In this document: positions 5,458 through 62,813 of the stretch, piece after piece | How positions within the stretch are numbered: the stretch's first letter is position 1 | How the letters are laid out: each line of letters begins with the position of its first letter | From: a virus | Taxonomy: Duplodnaviria; Heunggongvirae; Uroviricota; Caudoviricetes | Virus record (IMG/VR): IMGVR_UViG_3300031088_000776 | Direction: 5' to 3' (one strand) | Length of the DNA: 64,000 nt | The notes under the pieces: generated by a model | Database searches by the model: none | The model's input: only the letters and a program-made list of their open reading frames with translations | Told to the model about the DNA's origin: nothing | Program-made: the position numbers and the translations under genes

Positions 5458-5587
5458 AAGCATAAACATCAACTATCGGCAACAATTAGAGTAAAGTTTG
5501 TTTAATCTATTAACTGATTCTTGTTGATTTTAAGAAATCTCAAAGACCTCCTTTTAGAAAAAGTTTAAACATTATGGGGGTTTAAAA

Positions 5588-6679
5588 GTGAAGTATCATG
5601 TTAACGATGAAGGTCGAGTTCTTGTTTGCAAGGCTGATGTTCGAAGCTGTAACTTCGGTGAAGAAGAAGGCGGTATTGGCCACTATCCTAACCCTAAAGA
5701 CGCTGAGAAAGCATATGAGCGTCATATGCAATCAAAAATTTTCGCGAATGTTTCACGTCATCCTGAAATTCGTTACGAAGCTCCTTTAGAGTCTGCTAGT
5801 TATCATGAAAAAGTCCTTAGAGACTGCTATGACCGAAACAAAGAAATGTCGCAAATACAGCTGGCTAAACATTATAACTATGTTAGCGATACTATTTCAG
5901 AGCTTTATAAAAAAGGGATGACTACTGAAAAGACTCACGCTAGAGAAACTAAAGCTGGCCTAGCATTTAATGATGAAAGAGTCAAGGCTCATACTGAAAT
6001 CATTAATGAATTTATCGAAAAATATAAAGAAGTTCCTGAAAATGGTGAGGCTTTGTTCGCTGGCGGTCTCGGCGGGGCAGGCAAGTCTACAGTTCTAGGG
6101 CAATACGCTGGAATTGATCAATCGAAGTACGTAACCTTAAACCCCGATGATATTAAAGAGATTATGGCTGAGAAAGGATTGATCCCTAAAGTTAAGGGTC
6201 TGACTCCAATGGAGGCATCTCCTTTAGTCCATGAAGAGGCATCGCATATTACTGCTATAATCTTTGAAAAGATTCGTCAAAAGAAAAAGAATATTATCTT
6301 CGATATAACAATGTCTAGTCTTGGTTCAGTACAAAATAGAATACTTCATCTTAAGAAAGCAGGATATACTAAAGTTAGTGGTGTTTTTGTGGATATTACT
6401 CCAGAGACTTCGCATGAGAGAGGCGAGTATCGCTACCGTCAAGGTCTTCAGGATTATCTGAAAAATAAAAACGGCCACGGTGGGAGATTCTTACCGGGTA
6501 ATATTACAAGTGGTTTAAAGACAGATGAAGATAGTCAATTTAAATCTAAGAATGCTGAAAACTTTGTGAATCTTGCTAAACTTGGCGGTTTCACGCATAT
6601 GCCTCGAGTTTTTAATAATAATGTTTTTGGTCGTGACCCACAAGAAATAAGCTTTAAGAAGTTCGTTAAAGGTGAGTAG
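5588..6679 (+). CDS. N-module family protein with a C-terminal P-loop kinase (zeta-toxin/AAA_33-like)
   Basis: N-terminus MKYHVNDEGRVLVCKADVRSCNFG..GHY..AEKAYE carries the shared module. The C-terminal domain has the Walker A motif GGLGGAGKST. Confidence 0.5.
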   Translation: MKYHVNDEGRVLVCKADVRSCNFGEEEGGIGHYPNPKDAEKAYERHMQSKIFANVSRHPEIRYEAPLESASYHEKVLRDCYDRNKEMSQIQLAKHYNYVSDTISELYKKGMTTEKTHARETKAGLAFNDERVKAHTEIINEFIEKYKEVPENGEALFAGGLGGAGKSTVLGQYAGIDQSKYVTLNPDDIKEIMAEKGLIPKVKGLTPMEASPLVHEEASHITAIIFEKIRQKKKNIIFDITMSSLGSVQNRILHLKKAGYTKVSGVFVDITPETSHERGEYRYRQGLQDYLKNKNGHGGRFLPGNITSGLKTDEDSQFKSKNAENFVNLAKLGGFTHMPRVFNNNVFGRDPQEISFKKFVKGE

Positions 6680-7434: not shown

Positions 7435-7607
7435 TTTAATCCTTTTAAAATACTGAGATATTTTTCATCTTAAACTAACTATATCATACTGTTAATAAGA
7501 AGTCTTTATTTCTAGTCGATATGAACCTTTAACTTACTGTAATTGAATTTATTTTTCATTTTAGAAAATGTGCTATTTAGTTGAACTCAATACATTTGGA
7601 GCTATAA

Positions 7608-10929: not shown

Positions 10930-11486
10930 TTCAACTTGCTATTGATCTAGACGAGGTAGTCTTTGATTATGTTGGCGGAGTTCGAGAGTATGGCAAGACT
11001 AAAGGTGTTATTTTGCCTGATAGCGAGCCTTCGCATTTCTCTATGACGGAATCTGGATGGTTTAAGACTATGAGTGACTTCCATGAATTTCATAGAGGGG
11101 CTGTAGTTGACAATATTTACCAGAATCTAAAGGTTATCGAGGGAGCTTCTGAAACTCTTCATGAACTTTCAGATTCAGGGTATGGGATTAATATCCTAAC
11201 TTCTCGCTTCGTTCTTCCGCGTCAGCATAATCTTGTTGTCACTCAGACTGTTAATGCTCTAGATATGTTTGACATCCCATATTCAAATATTACCTTTAGT
11301 AATGAGAAGTGGCGCCATAAGTATGATGCATATTTTGAGGATGCTCCGCATAATCTTATCCCTTTGCAAGAACATGGTCTTTATACTGTAACTTTTGATC
11401 GACTTTGGAATAGAGATGTTCCTGGTGATCGAGCAAGAGGTTGGAGCGAATTCCGTGAAGTTCTTAAGGGAAAGTTCGGGAAGTAA
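10914..11486 (+). CDS. HAD-family 5'(3')-deoxyribonucleotidase-like
   Basis: The N-terminal AIDLDEVVFDY is a DxDxV motif typical of the NT5C-type HAD nucleotidases. Confidence 0.5.
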   Translation: MAEKLIQLAIDLDEVVFDYVGGVREYGKTKGVILPDSEPSHFSMTESGWFKTMSDFHEFHRGAVVDNIYQNLKVIEGASETLHELSDSGYGINILTSRFVLPRQHNLVVTQTVNALDMFDIPYSNITFSNEKWRHKYDAYFEDAPHNLIPLQEHGLYTVTFDRLWNRDVPGDRARGWSEFREVLKGKFGK

Positions 11487-12678: not shown

Positions 12679-14052
12679 TTAATCTTCCTCTCCCTTCTCA
12701 ATTCTTGCGGCTTTCATCATTGCCATGAATTGATTTTTAACTCCTTGTTTTTCCCAAAAGTCCTTAATCTCGTTTCTTTGCTCTCCAGTAGTTGATTCGT
12801 CGCGGAAATCCTTAACACTAGCCCTTAAATCAGCAACTCTATCTTTTTTAGTTTGTTCCTTAGGCCATTGATATTCCCCAACTTCTTTGCGGTGAGTTTT
12901 GAAAATTGTTCGAAGATCTTTAAGGTCTTCATTCATAGCCTTACGATTATAGTCTTTACCAGTTTTAGCTCTAACGTTTTCCTCCATTCGGTCTCCAACA
13001 ACATCTAGAAGAGCTTTAGAGTTTAATTGGTAATTATCTTTTGTAGTATGGAAATTACGCCCTGGATTTTTAGGGTCAACAATTACCTTAGCGGTTGCCC
13101 AGTCTTTATACGGATTGTTGGCTGTATTCTCCCAATGCCCGTCAGAAATCTGCCCTTTAAGCTCATCTTCGAGCAACCATTTCTGCGCTTGAGTTCTAAC
13201 TCTAATAGTGTTGCCTTCGTCAGGAATCATGTGACCGAGACCGGCTTCTTCAAGCTCTGTCTGCTTATTCTCAACTTTTTTAATACTGTCTATCAATCGA
13301 CTACGAGCGCGTTCTTCACTTGCTTTATGCTTTTCAAGTCTCTCGACTAAATCAAATCCTTTACCTCTCGGATCAGAACCTGGAATCTTCTCTACTTTAT
13401 CAGTTTCTTTGTTGTAGCCGTAGTGATAGATACGACCTTCTTCTTCAGCATGTAGTTCATCATACTTCTTATGTCTCGAGATCATCTCGTTCAATTCGAG
13501 CCTTGCATAATTCTTATTTATAGCAGCAGTGTTCAATCCTTCAACCATAACCCTCTGCTTAGGTGTAGAGGTAATATTAGCTACGTAAGCGGGGATTTGT
13601 TGGATTGAATCTAGAGAGTCTTTCTCTTTTGCGTCAACATTACTCTCTACAGAGGCACCGTCTTCACGCTTCCAAGCCCCGTAACCTGCGCGAAGTTTTT
13701 CAGCAGTTGCAGATGTAGAAAGTTCCTTGCCTCCCTTGAAGGCTCGAACACTACCGTCTGGTTGAATCTCAATAACCTTACCCTGCGGATGCACATAACG
13801 CTCGACTTTAGAAGCGACTTCATATGCCCCACTAGTTAGAACACCGTTATTTGCTGAAGTAGGTTTATCATTAGTCTTTCTAGATTTCTTCATTGGTTTT
13901 TGAACTGTTTGTGAAGCCATTGAGAGTTCATATGCCTGCTGAGCTATCTCAGGTGACGAATAATGCTGTGCATCTCCACCAAATTTGCAATCACGAATTT
14001 CTGCAGTGCAGACTCCCGGGACTCCCTCATCGTTAACATGATATTTAGCCAT
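12679..14052 (-). CDS. N-module family protein (457 aa), C-terminal domain unknown
   Basis: N-terminus MAKYHVNDEGVPGVCTAEIRDCKFG..QHY..AQQAYE. Confidence 0.55.
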   Translation of the reverse strand: MAKYHVNDEGVPGVCTAEIRDCKFGGDAQHYSSPEIAQQAYELSMASQTVQKPMKKSRKTNDKPTSANNGVLTSGAYEVASKVERYVHPQGKVIEIQPDGSVRAFKGGKELSTSATAEKLRAGYGAWKREDGASVESNVDAKEKDSLDSIQQIPAYVANITSTPKQRVMVEGLNTAAINKNYARLELNEMISRHKKYDELHAEEEGRIYHYGYNKETDKVEKIPGSDPRGKGFDLVERLEKHKASEERARSRLIDSIKKVENKQTELEEAGLGHMIPDEGNTIRVRTQAQKWLLEDELKGQISDGHWENTANNPYKDWATAKVIVDPKNPGRNFHTTKDNYQLNSKALLDVVGDRMEENVRAKTGKDYNRKAMNEDLKDLRTIFKTHRKEVGEYQWPKEQTKKDRVADLRASVKDFRDESTTGEQRNEIKDFWEKQGVKNQFMAMMKAARIEKGEED

Positions 14053-14163
14053 TATATAGCCTCCGATTGAATTGAAATTGTAAAATGTTTTCTAAACTTA
14101 AATAAGCAGTTTAGTCTTAATTCTCGGTAAAATACTTAAAAGACAAACAGGAAGGGTAGCTTA

Positions 14164-43226: not shown

Positions 43227-45248
43227 ATGACTAACAATCTTACCAACCTAGATAGCACTAATTTTGACCTAGATGAGGTTGATTCAATCGCCCCGCATAA
43301 GATCAGAATTCTTGAAGAAATTGCGAAATCAAAAAAGATCGCATATAAAGAATTTCCTGAAGCTGTGAGGGAGTCGCTCGATGAGATGGCTATGAGTTTG
43401 CTAGATAACCATGCTGGCAGACTTATGATCATTGGTTATGAGCGCGTAGGTAAGTCATTTCTTATTGAGCAGCTAGCCTTCAATAAGTCTGTATTTATTG
43501 AAAAAACCGGTCGAGATAATCTAACTTTTATTGTAATCAATGAATCAGAACTACGTTCTATTGATAAGACTTTTGAAAGCTGGGCAGACTATCTAGGATA
43601 TGTTGAAAGCATTACCGGCGCAACTGAAGAGACAATTTGTTTCGTAACCAGCGATGCATATGTTGCTAAAGAACTTTCAGAAATTTCTATCAACAGTAAA
43701 ATTATTCTTGAGACTAGCATTAATACAATCAGTAATCTTCTTGCCTCAGAATTTGAGGGCGAGACTAACATGTGGACATCTTGGGATGCACATGACGCTA
43801 ACTTTGTCTACATGAAGAAGCCTGAACTAATTAAAATGCTAAATGCGAGCATTCTACCTCTAGTGATTGAATCATACGGTAACATTCTTAACGAAAAGAA
43901 AATTGAAAACTTCGTTAATATTATTCTTCAAGAGGTTCCAATCACAGTTCAGGATAAGGTTATTTATGCACCAGCAGGTCTATTTGCTTTCATGATTAGA
44001 AGACTTGCAGGATACTTAGCTCTAGGTAGCGCATCGGATCTAGTTTCTTCTAAAGGTTCTCCTACATTTGCTAAAACTTCTAAAAAAGTAATTATGGAGT
44101 TCATGAATGTTTTTGACTCTTTCTTGGGTAACTCTAATGGAATGGGTTTCGCAAACTCTATTAGCGAAGCAGATGCTCCAATTGAGGGTGGCCGCCAAAC
44201 TCTTCATATTACTCAAGATGACATTGAAAAACTTATTGAGATTAAAAAAGAACGTGAGCGTATCGAACGTGGAGAACCAAGCCAAGATGACAACTTTGCA
44301 TTCTCTGATATGAGCACACTTGCAGATCGGTTAAAGAAAGAAGTAATCGGCCAAGATGACGCTATTAATAAAGTCGTAGGAAATATGATTATTCCTGCTG
44401 CAGGATTAAATGACCCCGAGAAACCAATTACTAGCTTGCTCCTCTTAGGCCCAACCGGCGTTGGTAAAACTAAAATTGCTCAAACTCTTGCTAAAGAATT
44501 AATGAATAAAGAGCTCAACTTTGTTCGTCTAGATATGTCAGAATATGCTGAAAAGCATACAGCTAACAGACTCTTCGGTTCACCTTCAGGATACATCGGA
44601 CACGATAAAGGTGGAGAGCTCACAAACGCTATCATGGATAAGCCTCATTCAGTCATTCTACTTGATGAAGTAGAGAAAGCTCACCCTCTGATCTGGGACA
44701 GCTTCTTGCAGGTATTCGATGCTGGTCGAATGACAAGTGGTAAAGGCGAAACGGTAGATTTCTCGAAGTCTATTATCATCATGACTAGTAACCTTGGAGC
44801 CCGTGAAGTTTCTAAAAAGAATATGGGATTTGCTGGCGGAACTCTAATGAATAAAGCTTCGAACTACATTGATTCTAAATCAACTGTAATGCAGGCTGTT
44901 GAAGATTATTTCAAGCCTGAAATGCTTAATAGAATTGATGAAATTGTTCTCCTTAATTCACTAGACATGGATACTGCTAAACTGATTGTTCAGAAAGAAT
45001 TGAATATTGTATTTAGTAGAGCTAATTCTGCAGGCTACACTATCAATGAACCTAATAGCGATATTATTGATGTTCTGCTCGAAAAGGCTGACATTAATAA
45101 ATATGGTGCTCGCGAGATTCAGCGTATTATTAAGAACAATCTTTCCGCAGTCTTAGCATCAGCAATGCTTGACGAAAACCGAAAGTCAGACATGATCGAT
45201 TTTGCTATTAGCGAGGAGAACAAGATCATAGTGACTTACGAAAATTAA
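43227..45248 (+). CDS. ClpA/ClpB-family two-domain AAA+ ATPase
   Basis: D1 Walker A GYERVGKS. D2 has VIGQDDAI, LLLGPTGVGKT, ILLDEVEKAH and SNLGA, all Clp/Hsp100 D2 signatures. Confidence 0.75.
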   Translation: MTNNLTNLDSTNFDLDEVDSIAPHKIRILEEIAKSKKIAYKEFPEAVRESLDEMAMSLLDNHAGRLMIIGYERVGKSFLIEQLAFNKSVFIEKTGRDNLTFIVINESELRSIDKTFESWADYLGYVESITGATEETICFVTSDAYVAKELSEISINSKIILETSINTISNLLASEFEGETNMWTSWDAHDANFVYMKKPELIKMLNASILPLVIESYGNILNEKKIENFVNIILQEVPITVQDKVIYAPAGLFAFMIRRLAGYLALGSASDLVSSKGSPTFAKTSKKVIMEFMNVFDSFLGNSNGMGFANSISEADAPIEGGRQTLHITQDDIEKLIEIKKERERIERGEPSQDDNFAFSDMSTLADRLKKEVIGQDDAINKVVGNMIIPAAGLNDPEKPITSLLLLGPTGVGKTKIAQTLAKELMNKELNFVRLDMSEYAEKHTANRLFGSPSGYIGHDKGGELTNAIMDKPHSVILLDEVEKAHPLIWDSFLQVFDAGRMTSGKGETVDFSKSIIIMTSNLGAREVSKKNMGFAGGTLMNKASNYIDSKSTVMQAVEDYFKPEMLNRIDEIVLLNSLDMDTAKLIVQKELNIVFSRANSAGYTINEPNSDIIDVLLEKADINKYGAREIQRIIKNNLSAVLASAMLDENRKSDMIDFAISEENKIIVTYEN

Positions 45249-52724: not shown

Positions 52725-53786
52725 ATGTCTAAGAAAGTCCTAAGGGGAGTCACAGATCTATCCTCACAAAAACCAGACGTAGCAAAAGATTGGGATTATT
52801 CTAAAAATTCTAAAACTCCAGGTGAAGTGTCTCAATACTCTAATAAGACAGCATGGTGGGTTTGCAATGAGCTTCACTCATGGGAGTCTGTTATTGCGAA
52901 TAGATCTAAAGGTTCGGGATGCCCCGAATGCGCTAAAACTACTCGCGGTGAAAATATTAGTAAAGCTAAAAATATTAGTAATAAGCCATTATATGGTCAT
53001 AAAGAGCTTAAGAAAGAATTCTGCATAGTTAATTCTTACAATCCATACATTAAAGGAAATTCATATCAATCAAAAGTTCTATGGATATGCTCGGAATGTT
53101 CAAAAAGTTGGGTTGCTAAGATTAGCAAAAGAATTAAAGGTAGTGGTTGCCCAAATTGCTGGAAGTTAAACAAAGGTAAAGAATATGTTAAATCAATAGT
53201 TAGATCTAAAGGTTCACTATTCTACACTAATCCAGAAGTTCAAGAATATTGGGACTACGAGAAGAATAAGTTACATAAAATTTATCCAGAAAAGTTTTCA
53301 GCAGGGTCTCACTCTTACGCCTATTGGTTTTGCCCAAAATGCAAGCATTCATGGAGGGCAATAATAAAAAGTGTCGCAATCAAGGGTTCAAGATGTTCTA
53401 AGTGCATGAGTAAAACATCTAAAGGGGAAGAAGAATTATTTAATTTCGTTAGAAGTCTTTATAAAGACGCAATCAAGAATGATAGGAAAATTGTCAATCC
53501 TAAAGAATTAGATATTTATATTCCTAGCAAGAAAGTAGCAATAGAGTACAACGGTGAATATTGGCACTCTAATGAAGTTATGTCTGTTAGAATAAACAGA
53601 ATTTCTGAAGAATATCACAGAGAGAAGATACAGATTTGTGAGGCATATGGAATTGATTTACTTTTTGTCTGGGAGGATGATTGGCTTAGGAATAAAGACA
53701 CAGTTAAAGAATTAATTATAAGATACTTTGATAATAGACAAAAGAACAGCATATTTAAAAGACTTATTTCTAATAGAGATCTATAG
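52725..53786 (+). CDS. zinc-ribbon repeats (at least five) plus a Vsr/DUF559-like endonuclease domain, paralog 3
   Basis: WWVCNELHSW..GSGCPECAK, WICSECSKSW..GSGCPNCWK and WFCPKCKHSW..GSRCSKCMSK. The C-terminus is ELDIYIPSKKVAIEYNGEYWHS..LLFVWEDDW. Confidence 0.6.
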   Translation: MSKKVLRGVTDLSSQKPDVAKDWDYSKNSKTPGEVSQYSNKTAWWVCNELHSWESVIANRSKGSGCPECAKTTRGENISKAKNISNKPLYGHKELKKEFCIVNSYNPYIKGNSYQSKVLWICSECSKSWVAKISKRIKGSGCPNCWKLNKGKEYVKSIVRSKGSLFYTNPEVQEYWDYEKNKLHKIYPEKFSAGSHSYAYWFCPKCKHSWRAIIKSVAIKGSRCSKCMSKTSKGEEELFNFVRSLYKDAIKNDRKIVNPKELDIYIPSKKVAIEYNGEYWHSNEVMSVRINRISEEYHREKIQICEAYGIDLLFVWEDDWLRNKDTVKELIIRYFDNRQKNSIFKRLISNRDL

Positions 53787-53790
53787 AGGT

Positions 53791-54000
53791 ATGATGGAGT
53801 CAGCGAGAATTGGTTTTATATATACTATAAGACATTTTGAGAAAATTCTTTATGTAAGTCAAACTGTCAATCCTGATAAAAGAATTGATTCTCATAAGAG
53901 AAAGCTTTATCGTGGAGACCATAAGCTTGAGTCTCTTCAACATCTTTTTATCGTATTAAGAATTCATAAAGAGTATATTCTGCTAAAAATCCTAGATTGA
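53791..54000 (+). CDS. small GIY-YIG nuclease-like protein (UPF0213/YhbQ-like)
   Basis: MMESARIGFIYTIRHFEKILYVSQTVNPDKRIDSHKRKLYRG parallels E. coli YhbQ ([39 protein letters not shown]). It lies inside the inverted-repeat-bounded cassette. Confidence 0.45.
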   Translation: MMESARIGFIYTIRHFEKILYVSQTVNPDKRIDSHKRKLYRGDHKLESLQHLFIVLRIHKEYILLKILD

Positions 54001-54026
54001 TAATTTTGCTTTTTTAGAATTCGAGT

Positions 54027-54067
54027 AAAAACAGCGCTACTAAGACTAAAAATACTTACTAAAAGAG
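54027..54067. repeat. right 41-bp terminal inverted repeat
   Basis: aaaaacagcgctactaagactaaaaatacttactaaaagag, the exact reverse complement of 52451-52491. Confidence 0.85.
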
Positions 54068-54117
54068 TAATAGTAAACTTGGTAAAATTACAAAAACTGA
54101 AGTTGTAAGGAGCCATT

Positions 54118-55608
54118 TTGCCAAGCAAAACAATAGAAAGAATCTGTTCTTTAGGTCATAAATATCCAAGTTATAAAAATATGAGATTAAGATGTCCCTA
54201 TTGTAACAATAAGAAACTTCTTAAAGGTTTTAATGACCTAAAGACTAAAAGACCAGACTTGGTTTTAGATTGGGGCAACAATAACAAAAAGAGTGTTAAG
54301 GATATAACTATAACATCAGATTATGAGGCCGAGTGGATTTGTCATAAATGCAAACATTGTTGGGTAACTGCTGTTCGCAATAGATCAAACAATAACAATT
54401 GCGTCTCCTGTGAAGACAAAAATTCAGGTAAAGAAAATAGTTTTCATTCTAATAGAGAAAATTTTAAGAAGCTATGGAGCGAGAAGTTAAATGGAGAGCT
54501 ACCTGTATATTTACCTAAATCCTCTTTAAGCATTTACTGGTTCACATGCGGTCAATTTGATCATGAATACCAAGCAACTGTGAAGTCTACTTTTAAAACA
54601 AAATTCAATTGCCAAGTCTGTTCTGGGAATGTTTTTAAAGTGGGGGTTAACGACGCTGAGAGTCTCTATCCTGAGTTAATTAGCAAATGGAGTTCAAGAA
54701 ATGACTTGAAACTTTCTGAAGTAAACCCAAAGTCAACTAAAGAGTATCTTTGGGTTTGTCAAGAGAACCATGAGTCTTTTAAAACTGTTCCAAGAGTGCT
54801 TTCTAAGCCTAATTGCAAGTATTGTCTAAAGAAGGATATAGAACTAGAGGATTCGATCTTATCTACGCATCCAGAATTAGCAAAGAATTGGTCTTCATTA
54901 AATTCTAAAAAATCTTCAGAAATTTCTTCAGGCTCAGGGTATACTGCAGTTTGGAATTGCACTGAGGAGGATCATTCGTTTAAGAGGATTGTCCATAGGT
55001 ATATCAGCAGTAACAACTCTTGCCCTATCTGTAAAGGACATAAACTTCTTAAAGGGTTTAACGATGTTTCTACTGTCTGGCCACAACTGAATGATTTACT
55101 TTCAGAAAGAAATGAGAATCAAAATATTCTTTCTGAAATAACTTTTAAGTTCTCTACCAAGCTTTACTGGACTTGTAAAAGGGGTCATGAAACTTATTGT
55201 TCAGCATATCAAAGAGCTAACTTTTCATGTGGTAAATGCACTAGCAGTAAGGGTGAAGACGAGTTAAATGACTTCGTTAACAGCCTTAAGTTAGATTCTA
55301 TTCAAGGCTGCAAAACCTTAATTAATCCTTTTGAAATAGATATCTATATTCCAAAATTGAATATTGCTTTAGAGTTTAATGGAGACTATTGGCATTCAGA
55401 TGAGATTGTTGCTGGTAAGAGTCGTTTTAAGACTGCTGAAGAATACCACTCATATAAAAAGCTTCTTTGTCGGGAAAAGAATATTGACCTGTACTTCATC
55501 TGGGAGAGCGATTGGATAGATAATCAAAGTGAAGTCAAAAGCTCTTTGAAAAGACTTCTCGAAGGAAATAAATCGGACCCTATTCTAGAAAAGTTATCGA
55601 ACTCTTAA
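54118..55608 (+). CDS. zinc-ribbon repeats (at least seven) plus a Vsr/DUF559-like endonuclease domain, paralog 4
   Basis: Multiple W.C..H/CxxC ribbons. The C-terminus is EIDIYIPKLNIALEFNGDYWHS..DLYFIWESDW. AAGGAG RBS plus TTG start. Confidence 0.6.
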   Translation: MPSKTIERICSLGHKYPSYKNMRLRCPYCNNKKLLKGFNDLKTKRPDLVLDWGNNNKKSVKDITITSDYEAEWICHKCKHCWVTAVRNRSNNNNCVSCEDKNSGKENSFHSNRENFKKLWSEKLNGELPVYLPKSSLSIYWFTCGQFDHEYQATVKSTFKTKFNCQVCSGNVFKVGVNDAESLYPELISKWSSRNDLKLSEVNPKSTKEYLWVCQENHESFKTVPRVLSKPNCKYCLKKDIELEDSILSTHPELAKNWSSLNSKKSSEISSGSGYTAVWNCTEEDHSFKRIVHRYISSNNSCPICKGHKLLKGFNDVSTVWPQLNDLLSERNENQNILSEITFKFSTKLYWTCKRGHETYCSAYQRANFSCGKCTSSKGEDELNDFVNSLKLDSIQGCKTLINPFEIDIYIPKLNIALEFNGDYWHSDEIVAGKSRFKTAEEYHSYKKLLCREKNIDLYFIWESDWIDNQSEVKSSLKRLLEGNKSDPILEKLSNS

Positions 55609-55856: not shown

Positions 55857-57062
55857 TTACTGTTCATTAAGATGAGCAATAATTCTATCAGCTTCAGAAT
55901 AAGTTAGATTCTTGCGGCTGTCAACTTCACGACCAAGGAAGTCAGAGAGCCATTTTAGTGCTCTTGATTTCTCCCAATTGTAAATTCCAATAAATTCAAG
56001 CCCTGCGAAGATTTCTCCACGCTGGTAGTTAGTCATATTGTAAACAGTTGAACCGCTATTAGCTTTAGAGGTCATTGAGTCTGATGATTCAGTAGTTTTA
56101 GTATCATTGTCAACACTTGTTGAAACACTTTCAGAATCTTTCGTAGAATCCTTAACTGAATCTTCACTCTTAGTGGAGTAGATACCTGACTTCAACGGCG
56201 CATTAAGAACATCAATGATTTCATATTTGTCTGTGCGGCCCTTCTGAGCATCACAGTCTGTAGGAATACTGACTACGTTCGCAGGATGAATCTTTAGCAA
56301 GAATACGTTTCCATCGCGAGAGTGACCCTGAGCAAAGTTGAGAGTCGAGAAGTGCAAGCCTGGTCCACACCCTTGAGCGGGATCTGCAGTAACGTCAGAA
56401 CGCTTCATGAAGACTGTAGTCCCTACCTCATTTGGAATTTGCGAATTAACGTAATCAGTAACTTCACCGTTCTTTAGGACTGAAGAGTTACCTGACCAAC
56501 CTGAGTAGTGAACACCATCTTTAATGACTGGGCATCCCTTGTAAGCTAGGAAGTAACCATCATCAGTAATCGTGAATCCACCGTGAGCGGCCTGCATAGA
56601 AGCTAACCATGAGTACAGTTGATCACGGACGAATGGGTCAGTGTTCTGCTGTAAGTTTTCAACAAACTTAGCGAATGATGACCAAATCTTCTCGTCTCGA
56701 GGTGAAGAGTCGCTCTTGAACATTCTCGTAATGTGTGCGGAAAGGTGCTCGTTTAACTTCTCTCCATTGTAATATACTGAAGCGTCTTTAGTAGTAAAGA
56801 TACCGTTAGTAGGAGACTTCAATGCTTTGCGAACTCGAGCCTTAGTGTCGATTAGCTCAATAATCTCAGTCGCAATTCTGCTTTCTTCCTCGGGGGATTC
56901 GGCCTTATTGTATTCAGAGAATAATTCGCGAGCGCTACTGAATCTTTCTGAACCTTCTGAAACAGAGGCCCAACGCTGAACATTGTCTTCATCTTTAAAG
57001 AGTAGCTTAAGGGTTTTCTTCCCTGAAGTGTCTTTAGTAAAATTTGCTGTAACGATTTCCAT
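55857..57062 (-). CDS. hypothetical protein (401 aa)
   Basis: ORF with a Ser/Thr/Asp-rich middle segment and no confident motif. Confidence 0.5.
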   Translation of the reverse strand: MEIVTANFTKDTSGKKTLKLLFKDEDNVQRWASVSEGSERFSSARELFSEYNKAESPEEESRIATEIIELIDTKARVRKALKSPTNGIFTTKDASVYYNGEKLNEHLSAHITRMFKSDSSPRDEKIWSSFAKFVENLQQNTDPFVRDQLYSWLASMQAAHGGFTITDDGYFLAYKGCPVIKDGVHYSGWSGNSSVLKNGEVTDYVNSQIPNEVGTTVFMKRSDVTADPAQGCGPGLHFSTLNFAQGHSRDGNVFLLKIHPANVVSIPTDCDAQKGRTDKYEIIDVLNAPLKSGIYSTKSEDSVKDSTKDSESVSTSVDNDTKTTESSDSMTSKANSGSTVYNMTNYQRGEIFAGLEFIGIYNWEKSRALKWLSDFLGREVDSRKNLTYSEADRIIAHLNEQ

Positions 57063-57111
57063 TATTTCACTACTTTCTTGTTTGTAAGCTTACTTTTCTA
57101 TTTTACCAAAT

Positions 57112-59511
57112 TTATGCGCTGATTGATTTGACTCGATCAATGTAAACTGCCCTCATGCTACGCTTCAGTTCTTCATCTTGAACGTTAAGAGACTCAATAG
57201 AAAAATTGTTGTGGACTAAGAACATAGCTTTATTGAGAAGATCTTTTGTCTTCTTTGGGGCCTTCGATGACTTCAGAGTGTCCTTAAGTCCTCTAAAATT
57301 GTCATTGGTTAGCATATGGTACAAAGTATAATCAATTTCTCCGCTGTAATAGAGTTTTCTAAAGTTAAGATCAGGTGTTGAAGCCTTCATTTTACCCATC
57401 TCTGTTGGGAATAATGCTTCTAATTCATTTAGCTCTAGGCTTCTCTTGTAGCTTGAGAAGTAGTAAGTCATGATTAACTTGAATAGATTCTCAGGGTCAT
57501 TTTCGATCAACTTTGAAATTGCTCGACGCATATTAGCTTCGGGCTTCACAAGGTTTTTCTTAGCATATTCAGTAAGATAAACTCCACGAGGTGGCATTGT
57601 AGTGAATACGCACTTTTTACCTTTTGACTCTAATTCTTGAAGGTGGCTAGTCTTAAAATCATTGTAGTCAACGAATAGAACACAATCGCTCTCGACATCA
57701 ATTTTCTCTGAATTGTCAGCTCCGTTTGCAGCGTGCTCAATCTTGCAATCGCTACTCCGATAAACAATAACAGAATCAATCTCATTTAGACTATAAGTTT
57801 TCTTGAAAGCTTTAATGCCAATACTGTCTTTAGGGGATAACCAGCCTTTAATCAATCCACTATCTGCGCTTACAGAATTAGAACCTCTTGACTTCTTATT
57901 TTCGCGCTTATACTTTCGAGCCTCAGCAAGAAGATCTAGCATCGAAATAAACTCAATCTCACAGTCAAAGAGAACTCCCTTTGTAGAAATCAACTTAGGC
58001 ACTTCAAAACCTTCTTCAAGAATAATGAAAATGCTCTTACGCTTATCACCGCGAGAAGCTAGGAAACCGCGGCGGTGCTCATGCCAACCCTTAATAGTTT
58101 CGCTGCTAGCACCTGTTACGAAGAAGACATTATCAAAATCAGAACTTTCACCGCTTCTCGTAATGTTTTCATGGACGACAGAGCTATAAAAATCTTTTGG
58201 CTCGTGAGCATCGAAATTCTTTTCGAATTCCTTTGGTGAGCACTTCTCGATGTTGCATGTGTCTGAATATTCATAATTAACTTTATCTGAATTATTATTA
58301 GGAGAATTATGGCGTCTTCTAGCCACAATTGCTTCACGAACCCCTTTAGAATCAACAAGATTTCTAATAGTGTTGTAAATGCTTAGAGACTCGATTTTTT
58401 CTTTGTATGACTCATCAAATTTCAATACTGAATGAACAGTTCCAGATTGCGCAACTCTTCCGAAGTAAGATACACACATGTTCATAGCCTTAAGAGCTCT
58501 CTTCTCAAGAGATGTATTCATAGAGTCTACCGCCTTCAAGCAGTCAAACTTAAACTCAGGACCATTAATATAATCGTGAATCTTTCTATTTAGCTCTTCA
58601 CTGCGATTATCATGAGTAACTTCATCACGCGACGAGCTAAAGTTTACTACACCAGGCTTCAACTCAAATAGGATATTAGGCTCATCATTGTAGTAGTAGT
58701 TCCGATACTGTGAACCCTGTGAATAAACCCAGCCTCCAAGCCATAAAGCGGGGTTCAAGCGACTAATGTTCAATTCTGAGTTCATAAAGACTCGACCGTA
58801 AGTCTTTTCACCAGTCTTCTCGTCTTCATCAAGTAGTATCTCACCGATAGTGATCCAGTCCTTGGAGGCCTCGAAGCTATCTTCACCGTTGATGACAATT
58901 TCAAGGTCAAGTGAGTACTTCTGATACTTTTTAACAAGCTTCAGGAATTCTGAAGTGTCATCCTCTTTTACGGGGATAGAGACTTCAGTACCAGTAGAGT
59001 CATTCGTGGGACGATTCTTATAGACTACTTTAAGTTTGTAGCCAGCACTAGTATTGCTAAGAATGACAAGATTGGCTAGGCCGTCTTTAATAGATCGAAT
59101 ACTGAATTCAGTAGTGTAAGAGAGAGGCGCCTTGATACCTAGACCGTGCGAACCGATCTGAGTCATATCATCACCCTTATCGCTAGCACCGTAGTATCGG
59201 CAGTACTTAGTGAGAGAATCATAGTCCATACCAACACCGAAGTCACGAGTGATAAAAGTTCCCTGAATAGAGTCAAACTCTACCTGAATAGGCTTAGCAT
59301 TAGGTACTCTTACTGATGCGTCAATAGCATTAGAGATAGTTTCTCGAACTGTAGCTTCTTTAGGGTTCTTGTAAAGAAGAGTTAATCGGTCGATAATGTG
59401 ATTACGAGATTCCGAAAGTACATCCATATCAAATTCTTCAACAGGTTCAATAAGAGACTCTACAGTCTCCTTAGAAATTGTTGAATTATTTGATGATTTA
59501 GACAAAGCCAT
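57112..59511 (-). CDS. GHKL-superfamily (Hsp90/MORC-like) ATPase domain protein, about 800 aa
   Basis: N-box TISNAIDAS, G1 ITRDFGVGMD and G2 GSHGLGIKAPLS. GGAGGAG RBS lies before the ATG at 59511, which starts MALSKSS. Confidence 0.55.
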   Translation of the reverse strand: MALSKSSNNSTISKETVESLIEPVEEFDMDVLSESRNHIIDRLTLLYKNPKEATVRETISNAIDASVRVPNAKPIQVEFDSIQGTFITRDFGVGMDYDSLTKYCRYYGASDKGDDMTQIGSHGLGIKAPLSYTTEFSIRSIKDGLANLVILSNTSAGYKLKVVYKNRPTNDSTGTEVSIPVKEDDTSEFLKLVKKYQKYSLDLEIVINGEDSFEASKDWITIGEILLDEDEKTGEKTYGRVFMNSELNISRLNPALWLGGWVYSQGSQYRNYYYNDEPNILFELKPGVVNFSSSRDEVTHDNRSEELNRKIHDYINGPEFKFDCLKAVDSMNTSLEKRALKAMNMCVSYFGRVAQSGTVHSVLKFDESYKEKIESLSIYNTIRNLVDSKGVREAIVARRRHNSPNNNSDKVNYEYSDTCNIEKCSPKEFEKNFDAHEPKDFYSSVVHENITRSGESSDFDNVFFVTGASSETIKGWHEHRRGFLASRGDKRKSIFIILEEGFEVPKLISTKGVLFDCEIEFISMLDLLAEARKYKRENKKSRGSNSVSADSGLIKGWLSPKDSIGIKAFKKTYSLNEIDSVIVYRSSDCKIEHAANGADNSEKIDVESDCVLFVDYNDFKTSHLQELESKGKKCVFTTMPPRGVYLTEYAKKNLVKPEANMRRAISKLIENDPENLFKLIMTYYFSSYKRSLELNELEALFPTEMGKMKASTPDLNFRKLYYSGEIDYTLYHMLTNDNFRGLKDTLKSSKAPKKTKDLLNKAMFLVHNNFSIESLNVQDEELKRSMRAVYIDRVKSISA

Positions 59512-59885
59512 TTGTTCTCCTCCAAGATAGTAAATGTTCTTAAACATCCTATATGAAGAATTTAAAAGTTGCAAATCATTAATCAGAACTCTGTAAAGAA
59601 GACATTCTTAATAGTTTTATCTTCTACGTATTGCCTTAAAGAGTAAAACGCGAGGTAAAGATCATCTAAACAGCAAAAACGCTATCAATTAAAATTCAGT
59701 ATTCAGTTGCTATAGAAACGAAGAACTGATTTTAGAAAACTTTTTAAAAATTTTTAGAATTTTCATATTCAGGCTGTATCTCAGATGGTATATTGATTTT
59801 GCTCAATTCGATATTATTCCAAATTTTTAGTGCGGTGGCTCGCAAGGTCGCTAAACAAAGACTGTTTTAGCATAAGGAGTTTGTC

Positions 59886-60479
59886 ATGAACACCTCTATC
59901 TTTTCCGAATACAGCGACCTATACATGCGCCCATTCGAGCGTAATAATGACGCTATAAGTATTGCCCATATTTTACTTGACGAGAGAACCTGGTCGGGTG
60001 GTTTCGCAGACTCTTCTCGAACTCCAACTTCAATTGAAGACGCACTCGAGTTAGTTGATACTAGAAATGAAAACTCCACTATTTTTACTATTCTAAAAGC
60101 TTCAAGTAACACTATTGTTGGAAGTACTGGAGTAACAATGTGGGATCTTGAACGTGAGACAGCAAAAATTGGAAGAACTCTCATCAACCCTGACTTCTGG
60201 GGTCAAGGTGTCAATCATGAAATGAAGCTAATGTTCTTAGATCAGTTATTCATAAATAGCATTGGAAGAGTTGAATGCGATGTAGCGCCAACAAATGTCA
60301 ATAGTATGAGATCTCTTGAAAGATTTGGATTCACTTTTGAGGGTGTAAAGCGCCGGGCAGTGCAAAGACTCGACGGCACTTGGCGCGACACTGCAATTTT
60401 CTCTATGACAATAGAAGAATGGCCCTACAAGCGTGAACCGATTGTTGAAAGCTTAAAGTCAAAAATGAAGTCTTCGTAA
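59886..60479 (+). CDS. GNAT family N-acetyltransferase
   Basis: FWGQGVNHE (motif A-like) and SMRSLERFGFTFEGV (motif B-like). Confidence 0.65.
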   Translation: MNTSIFSEYSDLYMRPFERNNDAISIAHILLDERTWSGGFADSSRTPTSIEDALELVDTRNENSTIFTILKASSNTIVGSTGVTMWDLERETAKIGRTLINPDFWGQGVNHEMKLMFLDQLFINSIGRVECDVAPTNVNSMRSLERFGFTFEGVKRRAVQRLDGTWRDTAIFSMTIEEWPYKREPIVESLKSKMKSS

Positions 60480-60550: not shown

Positions 60551-60612
60551 AAAGCATTTAGCTTAGCATAATTGAATTAGAAAACAATTAAAGTTTCTCT
60601 AAAGGAGTAAAT

Positions 60613-61695
60613 ATGGCGAAGTACCACATTAGCGAAGACGATCAAGTGCGAGCTTGCAAGGCAAAAATAAAATGCCCTCTAGGTGGAGAGGAAGAGCATT
60701 ATTCTGACAAGAAAGAGGCTTTAGAAAGTCTTGAAAAAATTATTGAAATGGAAATGTCTATTGCTGAAAAGAAACCACAGAAAAGAGCGCCACAGTTAAC
60801 TCAAGCTTTAAAGTCTAAAATGAAATATACAGGTGAAGAGCCAGAGTGGTTTAAAAGTATCAAAGAAGAGTCTTCAGAATTATTTGGAAAACCTTCAGAA
60901 ATTATTGACGAAATTGAGATTGAAGGTCGCCCTACTCTAGTCGTATGGAATAACGAGTCACTCCGCAAACAAGATCGCGGACCTCAGCGGTCAGGATACA
61001 GTGTAAGCAGACTTGAATATAGAGACAAAGAAACTGGAGAAGAGCAGGCCTATCTTAATACTATTTACTCTACAGACGAGTCTTCCGAAAGAGTTTTCAA
61101 AAATGACGAATTGACTCCAATACGCTATCTAGCTAATGAGAACTCCTACTTCTATAGCTATAAAGATGAAGATAAACTACGAAAACTTAAAAAACTTGAA
61201 GAAAACGATAAAGGGTCTGAAGAAACTTATAACGAAAAAATAAAACTATGGAAGTTAGGTACTTTTCATCTTCGAGCAGACTTAGGTAGACGCCCCATTG
61301 AAGGGTACAGCTTTGACGAAAAAGACATACCAAAAGACGAAAAAGATCTTGATAAAGACATTGAGAAAATTATCGAAGCAGGTAAAGTCAAATACGACGA
61401 GTATAGGTTAAGATCTAAGACTCCGGGCATTGATTACTCTAGAGTCTCAGATAAGTTAAGAGGCAAAGGATTAGGTGCTTCACTCTATATCTATACCGCA
61501 AAAAAGCTTGCTGAAAAAGATCTAGTTTTATCCTCTTCAACAAACCAAACTGAAGAAGCTTTAAAGGCTTGGCAGAGAATGGGAAAGGACACTAAAATCC
61601 CAATGAAAGTTGTAGTCACTAAATATGTTAACGATGGTTACTCGTCTAATCAAGAAAGGTTTGCTATAGATTTTAGGAAAGATAAGACTAAGTGA
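60613..61695 (+). CDS. N-module family protein, C-terminus possibly GNAT-like
   Basis: N-terminus MAKYHISEDDQVRACKAKIKCPLGGEEEHYS..EALESLE. In the C-terminus, LRGKGLGASLYIY resembles GNAT motif A (R/Q-x-x-G-x-G/A). Confidence 0.5.
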   Translation: MAKYHISEDDQVRACKAKIKCPLGGEEEHYSDKKEALESLEKIIEMEMSIAEKKPQKRAPQLTQALKSKMKYTGEEPEWFKSIKEESSELFGKPSEIIDEIEIEGRPTLVVWNNESLRKQDRGPQRSGYSVSRLEYRDKETGEEQAYLNTIYSTDESSERVFKNDELTPIRYLANENSYFYSYKDEDKLRKLKKLEENDKGSEETYNEKIKLWKLGTFHLRADLGRRPIEGYSFDEKDIPKDEKDLDKDIEKIIEAGKVKYDEYRLRSKTPGIDYSRVSDKLRGKGLGASLYIYTAKKLAEKDLVLSSSTNQTEEALKAWQRMGKDTKIPMKVVVTKYVNDGYSSNQERFAIDFRKDKTK

Positions 61696-61742
61696 TAGCG
61701 AACAAAAGTAACTCTCAAATAATTTAGGAAAATACTAGAAAA

Positions 61743-62813
61743 ATGGCAAAATACCACATCTCCAAAAATGGCGAAGCTAAAATTTGCACAGCTAAGAAAA
61801 GAGCCTGTCGATACGAGAGTGAAGAACACTTTGAATCTTATGAAGCAGCGCAATCAAAGTCTGAAGAAATACTTTCTAAAAGATTTGGGAATATTGAAAC
61901 TATTAAAAGAGATACATCAGTAAGAAATAATAAGGCTTCAAAGTCTCGAAGCAATGACAAAGCCTTTACTGTAAGTCAATTAACAAAAGATATTCAAAGT
62001 TTTGCAAAAAATACTCCTCCAAGAAGATTAAATAAGTCTTTTAAGCTTCCTGAGGTTGCGCAAATCAAGGCTGAACTATTAAAATTCAACAATTCTGGAG
62101 ACCACTATCTTGACGAGAAGACTTTGCGATTCTACGAAAATAAGATAAGTATTATGGCGACCTTCAAAGATTTCGATGACGCTCCAACCTTACTTTACAT
62201 TGACAAGAGAAGCGGGACACTTTCGATCCGAGACAATCTAGATGAGATTGATGAAAAAGAAGATGATGATCTTGTAGTAAGATATATAGAAACCAAACTC
62301 AGTGATGAAGAGCTAGAAGACCCTTATAAAATTTCTGAAAAGGTTGCTGATCTCATGGATGATGCTGATAGGATTAAAGACTGGGGCTCACAAGAAAGGG
62401 CTGTTGCTGCTGCATATCTATCTTATGAGCATTATAGAATTAACGAAGCTTTGAGGAACAATACAGCAAGCGATAGCTTAAAGAAATCTATAGAAAAACT
62501 TGAGAGACAGCACACTTTAAAAGAGGAGAAAGTTGTCTACAGAGGGTTGAGAAACTTAAGTGCAGATATTGCAGAAAGCTTATCAAATGGTTCATTTAAA
62601 GATGGTGGGTTATTATCGACCTCTACTAACCCAAAGACAGCATTAGGCTTCTCAGGCAATAAAAAAGACTCAATAATACTCAAAATAATACTCCCTAAAG
62701 GTACTGAATGCTGGAACATGAGTGATGATTCAGAGAATGAGATAATTCTGCCTCGAAACTTCGATCTTTCAAAAGCTCAAATTCTGAAACTTAACGAAAG
62801 ACTAGACGTGTAA
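61743..62813 (+). CDS. N-module family protein with a C-terminal ADP-ribosyltransferase domain (R-S-E class, C3/VIP2/Alt-like)
   Basis: N-terminus MAKYHISKNGEAKICTAKKRACRY..EHF..AAQ. The C-terminus has YLSYEHYRINEALRN, VVYRGL (Arg), LLSTSTN (STS) and ENEIILP (ExE). Confidence 0.65.
   Translation: MAKYHISKNGEAKICTAKKRACRYESEEHFESYEAAQSKSEEILSKRFGNIETIKRDTSVRNNKASKSRSNDKAFTVSQLTKDIQSFAKNTPPRRLNKSFKLPEVAQIKAELLKFNNSGDHYLDEKTLRFYENKISIMATFKDFDDAPTLLYIDKRSGTLSIRDNLDEIDEKEDDDLVVRYIETKLSDEELEDPYKISEKVADLMDDADRIKDWGSQERAVAAAYLSYEHYRINEALRNNTASDSLKKSIEKLERQHTLKEEKVVYRGLRNLSADIAESLSNGSFKDGGLLSTSTNPKTALGFSGNKKDSIILKIILPKGTECWNMSDDSENEIILPRNFDLSKAQILKLNERLDV

What the first reader, a model, noticed from the sequence alone, without database searches (positions are those of the whole stretch)
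60613..62813. Family of five proteins sharing a novel 45-aa N-terminal Cys/His module fused to different effector domains
Five ORFs begin with the same module: 5588, 7608, 12679 (minus strand), 60613 and 61743. Its consensus is (A)KYH[VI]NDxGxxxxCxAxIxxCxFGxxxxHYxSxxEAxxAYE, with two Cys and two His residues at fixed spacing, so it could be a zinc knuckle.

Downstream of the module the proteins are unrelated:
- a zeta-toxin-like P-loop kinase
- a long coiled coil
- a 400-aa domain of unknown function
- a GNAT-like domain
- an R-S-E ADP-ribosyltransferase

Shuffling effector domains behind a common N-terminal cassette is how polymorphic toxins are built. It also resembles capsid-targeted injected proteins such as T4 Alt. 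I do not recognise the module as a described domain. It may be a packaging or ejection signal, or a shared partner-binding domain for anti-host effectors.
Basis: partly seen in the sequence, partly recalled or inferred. Interest (0 to 1): 0.9.

Follow-up and report, generated by a model that had tools for sequence, protein, structure and literature searches.

The report
N-terminal Cys/His tag on megaphage proteins
Five genes in this piece of a ~700-kb phage genome start with the same 45-residue His/Cys mini-domain; it is an undescribed but very widespread N-terminal tag of huge uncultivated phages that sits in front of dozens of different enzymes, probably to send them all to one destination such as the capsid.

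Summary
Exactly five ORFs in the window begin with M(A)KYH[IV]..G....C.A....C.FG...HY.S.EA..AYE. Leave-one-out profiles recover each copy (E 3e-8 to 1e-19), and the rest of the five proteins is unrelated.

The window is part of a 697,643-bp megaphage contig, which carries a sixth copy 5 kb beyond the window end. The module matches nothing in Pfam, NCBIfam, PHROGs or the PDB, by sequence or by fold. It is also absent from 50,697 GenBank phage records and 72,556 plasmids.

An exhaustive HMMER scan nevertheless finds 4,232 protein clusters. The module is almost always at residues 1-46. Where the contig is long, it is a 200-727 kb phage contig, often with tandem islands of 4-7 such genes.

His5, Cys15, Cys22 and His30 are invariant. 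AlphaFold2 gives a confident β-hairpin/loop/helix mini-domain followed by a disordered linker. Cargo is very diverse: Zeta-type kinase, R-S-ExE ADP-ribosyltransferase, CCA-adding enzyme, RNA ligases, PNK, ParB-C and mostly unknowns.

The copies are old paralogs, not recently shuffled cassettes, and they share an upstream TTTAGAAAA motif.

My best reading is a zinc-stabilised docking or address tag, most likely for capsid loading and injection. That function is inferred, not shown.

The parts
5588..6679 (+). ORF (363 aa, GTG start): module at residues 1-48 (nt 5588-5731), then a Zeta-toxin-type P-loop kinase domain
   Evidence: PF06414 6.6e-17, residues 151-305; Walker A at 159-167. Module-bearing orthologs occur in other jumbo-phage contigs.
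7608..8381 (+). ORF (257 aa): module at residues 1-46 (nt 7608-7745), then a K/E-rich, probably helical or coiled-coil region
   Evidence: (only weak SMC/Rad50/SbcC-type hits). Identical to database protein P0003.
12679..14052 (-). ORF (457 aa): module at residues 1-46 (nt 13915-14052), disordered linker 50-79, small β-domain 84-130, linker 133-159, large α/β domain 160-400 of unknown function
   Evidence: 80 homologs on contigs up to 673 kb; AF2 pLDDT profile; no PDB relative
60613..61695 (+). ORF (360 aa): module at residues 1-45 (nt 60613-60747), then a conserved C-terminal domain with an RGKGLGA motif (possible GNAT, unconfirmed)
   Evidence: GNAT Pfam hits only E 0.05-0.07; no PDB hit
61743..62813 (+). 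ORF (356 aa): module at residues 1-45 (nt 61743-61877), then an R-S-ExE ADP-ribosyltransferase domain
   Evidence: PF03496 3.6e-10, residues 214-342; PHROG 802 Alt-like, 6.9e-7; R267, S292-T-S294, E331-N-E333
5553..5561 (+). Promoter-like motif TTTAGAAAA, 35 nt upstream of ORF 5588
7560..7568 (+). Promoter-like motif TTTAGAAAA, 48 nt upstream of ORF 7608
14088..14096 (-). Promoter-like motif TTTAGAAAA, 44 nt upstream of ORF 12679-14052
60576..60584 (+). Promoter-like motif ATTAGAAAA (one mismatch), 37 nt upstream of ORF 60613

Best explanation
The 45-residue module is an autonomous mini-domain, most likely zinc-stabilised through His5, Cys15, Cys22 and His30. It sits at the extreme N-terminus of many otherwise unrelated proteins of huge phages and is joined to its cargo by a disordered linker.

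I read it as a docking or address tag. By binding one common partner, it gives a whole co-regulated set of phage enzymes the same fate. That set includes a Zeta-type kinase, an Alt-like ADP-ribosyltransferase, a possible acetyltransferase and, in relatives, tRNA-repair enzymes and many unknowns.

The fate I consider most likely is recruitment into the assembling capsid so that the cargo is injected with the DNA. The tag might then be removed by the prohead protease after the conserved A/G/S-x-E42.

Shown: the domain, its conservation, its position, its fold prediction, its cargo diversity, its restriction to huge phages, and the multi-copy islands.
Inferred: metal binding, partner binding, capsid loading and cleavage.
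For: Domain reality and autonomy:
- Profile and leave-one-out statistics support the module.
- There are 4,232 clusters at E<=1e-3, with the module at residues 1-46 in nearly all of the top 150.
- AF2 pLDDT is 85.6, and the same fold appears in a full-length model, followed by a pLDDT<50 linker.

Metal site:
- H5, C15, C22 and H30 are invariant, as are G10, A17 and A37.

Tag-like behaviour:
- The module is always at the ORF start; the median distance from the preceding stop is 6 aa across 195 copies.
- 150 cargos fall into 65 unrelated clusters.
- Tandem islands hold 4-7 module genes.
- One uncultured virus carries 11 module proteins.
- Copies lie at several dispersed places on the same 437-727 kb contigs.

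Co-regulation:
- TTTAGAAAA lies 35-48 nt upstream of 4 of 5 window copies and of the sixth copy.
- TAGAAAA is enriched 7.9-fold upstream of module genes elsewhere: 32/151 against 15/599.

Capsid-loading sub-hypothesis:
- The cargo types overlap those known or predicted to be head-packaged and injected: T4 Alt and the ART, GNAT and ParB domains of polyvalent proteins (PMC5512222, PMC9503650, PMC7824862).
- The Zeta domain matches PHROG 16619 'minor head protein'.
- A related module-ART matches the ART part of PHROG 595 'head maturation protease'.
- The module ends in A/G/S40-x-E42 in about 90% of copies. This is the motif cleaved by giant-phage prohead proteases (AXE in SPN3US, PMC10052503).
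Against: There is no experimental or proteomic evidence, and no cultured phage carries the module.

In the window the genes lie among nucleotide-metabolism, rII and replication genes, not virion genes.

Known capsid-targeting sequences are short peptides, not folded metal-binding domains.

A-Y-E lies inside the predicted helix, so its conservation may be structural.

Some cargos (CCA-adding enzyme, RNA ligase, PNK) act in the cytoplasm in T4 without being packaged.

Tandem double modules and one C-terminal copy exist (P0015, P0027, P0119). That fits a binding domain better than a cleavable leader.

I could not read the coordinates of the model, so the zinc-site geometry is unchecked.
Confidence: 0.4

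Rival explanations
1. The module is an intracellular docking domain. It tethers the cargo enzymes to a common hub inside the infected cell, such as the ribosome, the tRNA-processing machinery, RNA polymerase or a phage-encoded scaffold. The proteins are made after infection and are not packaged.
For: Much of the identifiable cargo acts on RNA, translation or NAD: ART, Zeta-type kinase, possible GNAT, CCA-adding enzyme with HD domain, Rnl1 and other RNA ligases, PNK and an Sm-like domain. The window copies sit among early or middle-type genes: dNMP kinase, 5'-nucleotidase, rIIA/B and RNR. Tandem double modules suggest avidity binding.
Against: No partner has been identified. About 85-90% of cargos have no recognisable function, so the RNA/NAD theme may reflect what can be annotated. 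The strict N-terminal position and the terminal A-x-E are not explained.
Confidence: 0.3
2. The module is a regulatory or stability element. Examples would be a tag read by a protease or unfoldase (the phage encodes a ClpB-D2-like AAA+ at 43227-45248), or an autoinhibitory cap that keeps toxic enzymes silent until it is removed.
For: Several cargos are potentially toxic (Zeta kinase, ART). The linker is disordered. An AAA+ Clp-type ATPase is encoded in the window.
Against: Most cargos are not recognisably toxic. A 45-aa domain on a 30-80 residue flexible tether is poorly placed to inhibit many unrelated active sites. There is no evidence linking the module to the AAA+ gene.
Confidence: 0.12
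3. The module is a nucleic-acid-binding zinc finger or knuckle that targets the enzymes to DNA or RNA.
For: It has an invariant Cys/His quartet, and many cargos act on nucleic acids.
Confidence: 0.08
4. The similarity is trivial: chance, low complexity, a signal peptide, or an artefact of gene calling or assembly.
For: None beyond the short length of the motif.
Against: Leave-one-out E-values are 1e-8 to 1e-19. There are 4,232 database clusters. Synonymous divergence under protein-level conservation is seen. The fold prediction is confident. The module has no hydrophobic h-region.
Confidence: 0.01

Closest known systems
Capsid-targeting sequences and N-terminal propeptides of T4 internal proteins and Alt, and of phiKZ/SPN3US head and ejection proteins
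   Same: An N-terminal element shared by otherwise unrelated proteins of one large phage. The cargo includes an Alt-like ART. The element ends in a small-x-Glu motif like the (L/I)xE and AXE prohead-protease sites (PMC10052503).
   Different: Those are short peptides or long unrelated propeptides without conserved Cys/His. This is a 45-aa folded, probably metal-binding domain conserved across thousands of proteins. Neither packaging nor cleavage has been shown here.
Polymorphic toxin systems, and MuF/portal-fused polyvalent proteins of phages (Zhang et al. 2012; Iyer et al. 2017, PMC5512222)
   Same: A constant N-terminal trafficking or anchoring part in front of variable C-terminal enzymatic domains. 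The domain repertoires overlap (ART, Zeta-type kinase, ParB, possibly GNAT). The genes cluster in islands.
   Different: There is one cargo per protein rather than long polyvalent arrays. No MuF, portal, LXG or RHS part is present. No evidence was found for adjacent immunity genes. There is no nucleotide-level cassette exchange. The fusions are old and orthologous, and many cargos are repair enzymes rather than toxins.
Dockerin-cohesin type docking modules; RxLR and Crinkler N-terminal motifs of oomycete effectors
   Same: A small conserved module that gives many different enzymes or effectors a common address.
   Different: These are functional analogies only. There is no sequence or structural relationship, and no scaffold or translocon partner has been identified here.
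Small metal- or disulfide-stabilised β-hairpin+helix folds (Kunitz/BPTI; zinc knuckles and ribbons)
   Same: The topology is a β-hairpin, a loop and a C-terminal helix. Four conserved Cys/His are placed to clamp these elements.

Membership tests
Any curated protein family for the module (Pfam-A 2025, NCBIfam 20, PHROGs v4) | A profile hit covering residues 1-46 | tested here: not met
   No hit to the N-terminus in the 5 window proteins at E<=1 (Pfam) or E<=0.1 (PHROGs, NCBIfam). No common family among 147 and 98 relatives.
Known structural folds (PDB) | A significant sequence or fold match | tested here: not met
Classical zinc knuckle or zinc ribbon | CCHC (C-x2-C-x4-H-x4-C) spacing, or paired CxxC knuckles | tested here: not met
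   The spacing is H-x9-C-x5-6-C-x7-10-H, with single ligands from separate elements.
Zinc-binding domain in general | Four invariant Cys/His ligands that bind a metal | tested here: inconclusive
   The ligand candidates are invariant in more than 150 sequences. Metal binding and site geometry cannot be tested with these tools.
Polymorphic toxin system | A conserved N-terminal part with variable C-terminal toxin domains | tested here: met
   65 unrelated cargo clusters among 150 proteins; the five window cargos are unrelated.
Polymorphic toxin system | Cassette exchange by recombination at the conserved part (nucleotide-level conservation, displaced cassettes) | tested here: not met
   43-58% nucleotide identity between modules, with about half of the identical residues encoded by different codons. 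Module-plus-cargo combinations are conserved as orthologs at 27-37% cargo identity.
Polymorphic toxin system | A cognate immunity gene immediately downstream | not tested
   Small ORFs follow some copies (e.g. 6762-6986), but they were not analysed. In the islands, module genes follow each other directly.
T4-type capsid-targeting sequence or prohead-protease propeptide | An N-terminal element ending in a small/aliphatic-x-Glu site that is cleaved by the prohead protease | tested here: inconclusive
   A/G/S40-x-E42 is present in about 90% of copies, but it lies inside a predicted helix. Cleavage cannot be tested.
T4-type capsid-targeting sequence or prohead-protease propeptide | The protein is present in the virion | not testable with these tools
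   No cultured phage carries the module, so no proteome is available.
Zeta toxin / PezT-type kinase (ORF 5588-6679) | A Pfam PF06414 hit above the gathering score, and a Walker A motif | tested here: met
   62 bits against a cut-off of 22.3; GGLGGAGKS at residues 159-167. The substrate is unknown.
R-S-E ADP-ribosyltransferase (ORF 61743-62813) | A PF03496 hit above the gathering score, and the R / S-T-S / E-x-E motifs | tested here: met
   40 bits against a cut-off of 23.4; R267, S292-T-S294 and E331-N-E333; PHROG 802 Alt-like at 6.9e-7.
GNAT acetyltransferase (ORF 60613-61695) | A Pfam GNAT hit above the gathering score, and the acetyl-CoA motif A (R/Q-x-x-G-x-G/A) | tested here: inconclusive
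   13.6 bits against a cut-off of 23.6; only 2 of 7 family members give weak hits. No PDB hit with the family profile. The motif RGKGLGA is present and conserved.

The most novel reading that the evidence does not exclude
The module is the address label of a dedicated protein-delivery system of huge phages. In this reading it is a folded, zinc-dependent capsid-loading domain, possibly clipped off at A-x-E by the prohead protease, and it marks every protein that is packed into the giant capsid and injected with the DNA. If so, the injected 'first-strike' proteome of thousands of uncultivated 200-730 kb phages could be read directly from sequence. The tag could also be used to load foreign proteins into phage heads.
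Probability: 0.3. Interest if true: 0.8.

Novelty: new variant of a known kind. Interest (0 to 1): 0.66.

Why it matters
Huge phages are known almost only from metagenomes, and most of their genes have no annotation. This module defines one of their largest uncharacterised multigene families. It has 4,232 clusters at 50% identity, with up to 7 genes per island and at least 11 per genome.

The module ties together enzymes typical of host takeover and counter-defence: ADP-ribosylation, Zeta-type phosphorylation and tRNA repair. A shared tag implies a shared partner or route. Finding that partner would reveal either how giant capsids are loaded with cargo or how these phages organise their effectors in the cell.

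The module is also a small, confidently predicted, apparently new metal-binding fold. It is a clean sequence marker for spotting fragments of huge phages in assemblies.

Tried and rejected
- The search for homologous proteins returned nothing with the module alignment and with a consensus module. The exhaustive HMMER scan found thousands, so the word-index results are false negatives, not evidence of rarity.
I used degenerate DNA patterns instead.
- The first pattern (MAKYH[IV]NxxG) gave 0 hits in IMG/VR, and 10 hits in GTDB genomes of which only one was real. A longer pattern reaching Cys15-x-Ala17 was highly specific: 125 of 131 loci were confirmed by HMM.
- The AFDB50 fold library was not available.
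- A PHROG scan of concatenated cargo sequences with GS linkers returned nothing, even for known Zeta and ART domains. I treat that result as uninformative.
- The apparent fusion of the module to a phiKZ-type conserved or virion protein (PHROG 3181 / 20401) occurs only on contig L014. That contig is a perfect 4,690-nt palindrome and so probably an assembly artefact. I rejected it as evidence for virion association.
- The 'head maturation protease' PHROG hit of a related module-ART covers only the ART part of that family, so it is weak evidence.
- GNAT status of ORF 60613 could not be confirmed with a 7-member family profile against the PDB or Pfam.
- The context of the one GTDB hit (L004, a Clostridiales MAG) was uninformative.
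- Literature searches found no description of this module.
Full report
**1. The observation**

They are 5588-6679(+), 7608-8381(+), 12679-14052(-), 60613-61695(+) and 61743-62813(+). All begin with M(A)KYH[IV]..G....C.A....C.FG...HY.S.EA..AYE.

In a MAFFT alignment, Y, H, C, A, C, H, A and E are invariant. A profile of the module scanned over the six-frame translation of the window finds exactly these five, at 69-87 bits; the next hit scores 5 bits. When one copy is left out, the profile of the other four still finds it at E 2.6e-8 to 1.1e-19.

BLASTP similarity between the proteins ends at about residue 45-55, and the C-terminal parts are unrelated, with a best E of 1.8.

**2. What the window is**

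The window proteins are on record from one 697,643-bp contig, ena:ERZ27247443:k141_1324127, also seen in SRR8867410. Window base 1 corresponds to contig base 159,909.

The window encodes:
- rIIA-like and rIIB proteins
- class I ribonucleotide reductase, DnaB, RecG and a ClpB-D2-type AAA+ ATPase
- a PBP1-type transglycosylase/transpeptidase with a PASTA domain
- a tRNA with a CUA anticodon

It has 38% G+C and no nucleotide match to 50,697 GenBank phage records. It is therefore a fragment of an uncultivated megaphage. Judging by the PASTA, G5 and NlpC/P60 genes, the host is probably Gram-positive; this is an inference.

A sixth module gene (435 aa) lies 5 kb beyond the right end of the window (L011 17576-18898).

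**3. The module is undescribed but very common**

No model in Pfam-A, NCBIfam or PHROGs covers residues 1-46 of any of the five proteins. The same holds for 147 and 98 relatives. A profile search of PDB sequences finds nothing at E<=10.

tblastn with a window module and with a consensus module finds nothing in 50,697 phage records at E<=10. In 72,556 plasmids it finds only chance hits at E=5.

In contrast, an exhaustive HMMER scan of 1.84 billion cluster representatives gives 4,232 proteins at E<=1e-3 and 384 at E<=1e-10. Among the best 150, the module starts at residue 1-16 in all but one; protein lengths run from 59 to 692 aa. The two word-index searches that returned nothing are therefore false negatives.

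**4. Where it occurs**

Orthologs of ORF 12679 lie on contigs of 673, 542, 475, 346, 307 and 211 kb. One of these is a second megaphage of 673 kb from the same sample, and it has three module genes in tandem.

The module HMM confirmed 125 of these 131 loci, which hold 195 modules.

The loci come from 21 distinct contigs of at least 200 kb, including two of 727 kb, one of 674 kb and two of 437 kb. Hits lie at several distant places on the same contig. Forty-one loci hold two or more module genes, and islands of 4-7 consecutive module genes occur.

Foldseek against BFVD found 11 module proteins in one uncultured virus, 'Siphoviridae sp. ctHip2', with TMq 0.66-0.88. In 185,579 GTDB species genomes, a (stricter) pattern found only one true copy, on a 15-kb MAG contig.

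The module is thus a hallmark of uncultivated huge phages.

**5. Anatomy of the module**

Over 153 aligned copies, the nearly invariant positions are H5 (152), G10 (151), C15 (152), A17 (150), C22 (153), H30 (153), Y/F31 (153) and A37 (153). G25 occurs in 144 and E42 in 139. Position 40 is A, G or S in 140 of 153.

AlphaFold2 with a 43-sequence alignment gives mean pLDDT 85.6. The model has a β-hairpin (residues 4-6 and 12-14), a loop carrying C15 and C22, a bridge at residue 31 next to H30, and a helix at 34-45.

The same fold reappears in a full-length model of ORF 12679 built from 75 homologs. There it is followed by a linker of pLDDT<50 (50-79), a small β-domain (84-130), a second linker (133-159) and a large, confident α/β domain.

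The four invariant His/Cys, drawn from separate structural elements of a small cytoplasmic domain, are most simply explained as a structural metal (zinc) site. This is an inference: I could not inspect the model coordinates, and the H-x9-C-x5-6-C-x7-10-H spacing fits no classical zinc-finger class (own knowledge).

The modules are neutral to acidic. Mean net charge is -0.5, and the window copies range from -4 to +1. That argues against a nucleic-acid-binding finger.

**6. The cargo**

In the window:
- ORF 5588: a Zeta-toxin-type P-loop kinase (PF06414, 6.6e-17; Walker A GGLGGAGKS).
- ORF 7608: a K/E-rich, presumably helical protein with only weak SMC-type hits.
- ORF 12679: a conserved 400-aa region of unknown function, with 80 homologs and no PDB relative.
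- ORF 60613: a conserved domain with an RGKGLGA motif whose GNAT assignment remains sub-threshold.
- ORF 61743: an R-S-ExE ADP-ribosyltransferase (PF03496, 3.6e-10; R267, S292-T-S, E331-x-E333; PHROG 802 Alt-like).

Among relatives, 150 cargos fall into 65 BLAST clusters. Only about 10-15% match any Pfam family. The recognisable ones are:
- Zeta toxin, ART, GNAT, and HEAT/LRV repeats
- a CCA-adding enzyme with an HD domain, and T4 Rnl1-type and other RNA ligases
- polynucleotide kinase, ParB C-terminal domain, a RecE-like exonuclease, and Q-like and MarR-like proteins

The cargo is therefore not a toxin set in the narrow sense. It is a broad set of host-takeover, counter-defence and repair enzymes, plus many unknowns.

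**7. Evolutionary mode**

The five module-coding segments share only 43-58% nucleotide identity, and about half of the identical residues use different codons. These are old paralogs under protein-level selection.

Specific module-plus-cargo combinations are conserved as orthologous families in distant huge phages. Module-Zeta has 35-38% cargo identity in more than 20 contigs, and module-ORF60613-type has 27-35%.

This differs from the ongoing cassette replacement of polymorphic toxin loci.

**8. Co-regulation**

The motif TTTAGAAAA, often followed after 3-5 nt by TTAAAC, lies 35-48 nt upstream of the start codons of ORFs 5588, 7608 and 12679. It is also upstream of ORF 60613 (with one mismatch) and of the sixth gene.

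The whole window has only 7 exact sites, no more than chance. Among about 60 other genes, only about six have a site with at most one mismatch within 90 nt upstream.

In other module-bearing phages, related TTAGA[GAT]A motifs precede module genes. The 7-mer TAGAAAA occurs in 32 of 151 non-identical module upstream regions, against 15 of 599 control upstream regions from the same loci. Phylogenetic redundancy inflates this contrast.

The module genes thus look like a co-regulated class. Its timing is unknown.

**9. Interpretation**

The shown facts are:
- a small, autonomous, probably metal-clamped domain
- always at the N-terminus and flexibly tethered
- in front of dozens of unrelated cargos
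- present in many copies per genome and restricted to huge phages
- with a shared upstream motif

These facts point to a docking or address tag that binds one common partner.

Which partner is inferred. I favour capsid loading and co-injection, for four reasons:
- Alt-type ARTs, and the ART, GNAT and ParB domains of polyvalent proteins, are known or predicted to be head-packaged (PMC5512222, PMC9503650, PMC7824862).
- The Zeta domain resembles that of a PHROG 'minor head protein'.
- Giant capsids carry large amounts of ejection protein (PMC7411985, PMC10052503).
- The module ends in the small-x-Glu motif cut by giant-phage prohead proteases (AXE; PMC10052503).

Against this:
- The genes lie among early-type genes.
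- The A-Y-E is within a helix.
- tRNA-repair enzymes are not packaged in T4 (own knowledge).
- Known capsid-targeting sequences are not folded domains.
- There is no proteomic evidence.

The main rival is docking to an intracellular hub, either the translation/RNA machinery or a phage scaffold. A nucleic-acid-binding role is unlikely because of the charge. A trivial explanation is excluded.

**10. Novelty**

The principle of a common N-terminal address in front of variable cargo is known. Examples are T4 capsid-targeting sequences, polymorphic toxins, MuF-fused polyvalent proteins and RxLR effectors.

The module itself is new. It belongs to no curated family or solved fold, and I found no description of it in the searched literature. 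It is also one of the largest multigene families of huge phages. I rate it a new variant of a known kind, with interest 0.66.

Noticed in passing
window 3539-3611 (+): A tRNA with anticodon CUA, which ARAGORN labels tRNA-Pyl. It is an amber-suppressor-type tRNA in a phage whose genes in this window otherwise read normally in code 11.
   Followed up: no
L028 175-7358 (contig 151,136-158,319, just left of the window): The megaphage encodes a type II secretion / type IV pilus-like gene set: two T2SSE ATPases (one with MshEN), a T2SSF platform protein, an A24 prepilin peptidase, PilM and a PilO-like protein, followed by an M50 peptidase. This is unusual for a phage.
   Followed up: no
window 37343-39499 (+): A phage-encoded class A penicillin-binding protein (transglycosylase + transpeptidase + PASTA). 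Another PASTA protein and a G5/NlpC-P60 hydrolase lie just right of the window (L011).
   Followed up: no
window 55857-59547 (-): An rIIB (PF26926) and rIIA-like gene pair lies immediately upstream of a standalone GNAT gene (59886-60479) and the two adjacent module genes.
   Followed up: partly
window 52725-55608 (+): Two DUF4379 zinc-ribbon-repeat proteins and a small GIY-YIG-like ORF follow the ribonucleotide reductase gene. They look like homing-endonuclease-type selfish elements.
   Followed up: no
window 7069-7434 (-): A cREC_REC receiver-like domain protein sits between two module genes. dNMP kinase-like (8351-9043, 10150-10929) and 5'-nucleotidase (10914-11486) genes are nearby.
   Followed up: no
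L014 1-4690 (IMGVR_UViG_3300006524_000155): This contig is a perfect palindrome, identical to its own reverse complement. It encodes a module fused to a ~700-aa protein conserved in 288 phiKZ-like jumbo phages (PHROG 3181). The fusion is seen nowhere else and is probably an assembly chimera.
   Followed up: yes
L026 8952-12004 (673-kb contig from the same sample): A variant form of the module has a longer second loop and HG instead of HY (K[FY]H..DG.P..C.A.SP.SC......HG). It occurs in three tandem genes, which shows the family is broader than the consensus used here.
   Followed up: partly
P0015, P0027, P0067, P0119: A few database proteins carry two modules in tandem or a module near the C-terminus. 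These are exceptions to the N-terminal rule and favour a binding domain over a cleavable leader.
   Followed up: no
L017, L022, L023, L015, L020 upstream regions: In a group of near-identical IMG/VR jumbo-phage contigs, the module genes are preceded by a different shared motif, (A)CGATATA(A/G)AAAA, about 30 nt upstream of the start. It may be that lineage's promoter for the same gene class.
   Followed up: partly
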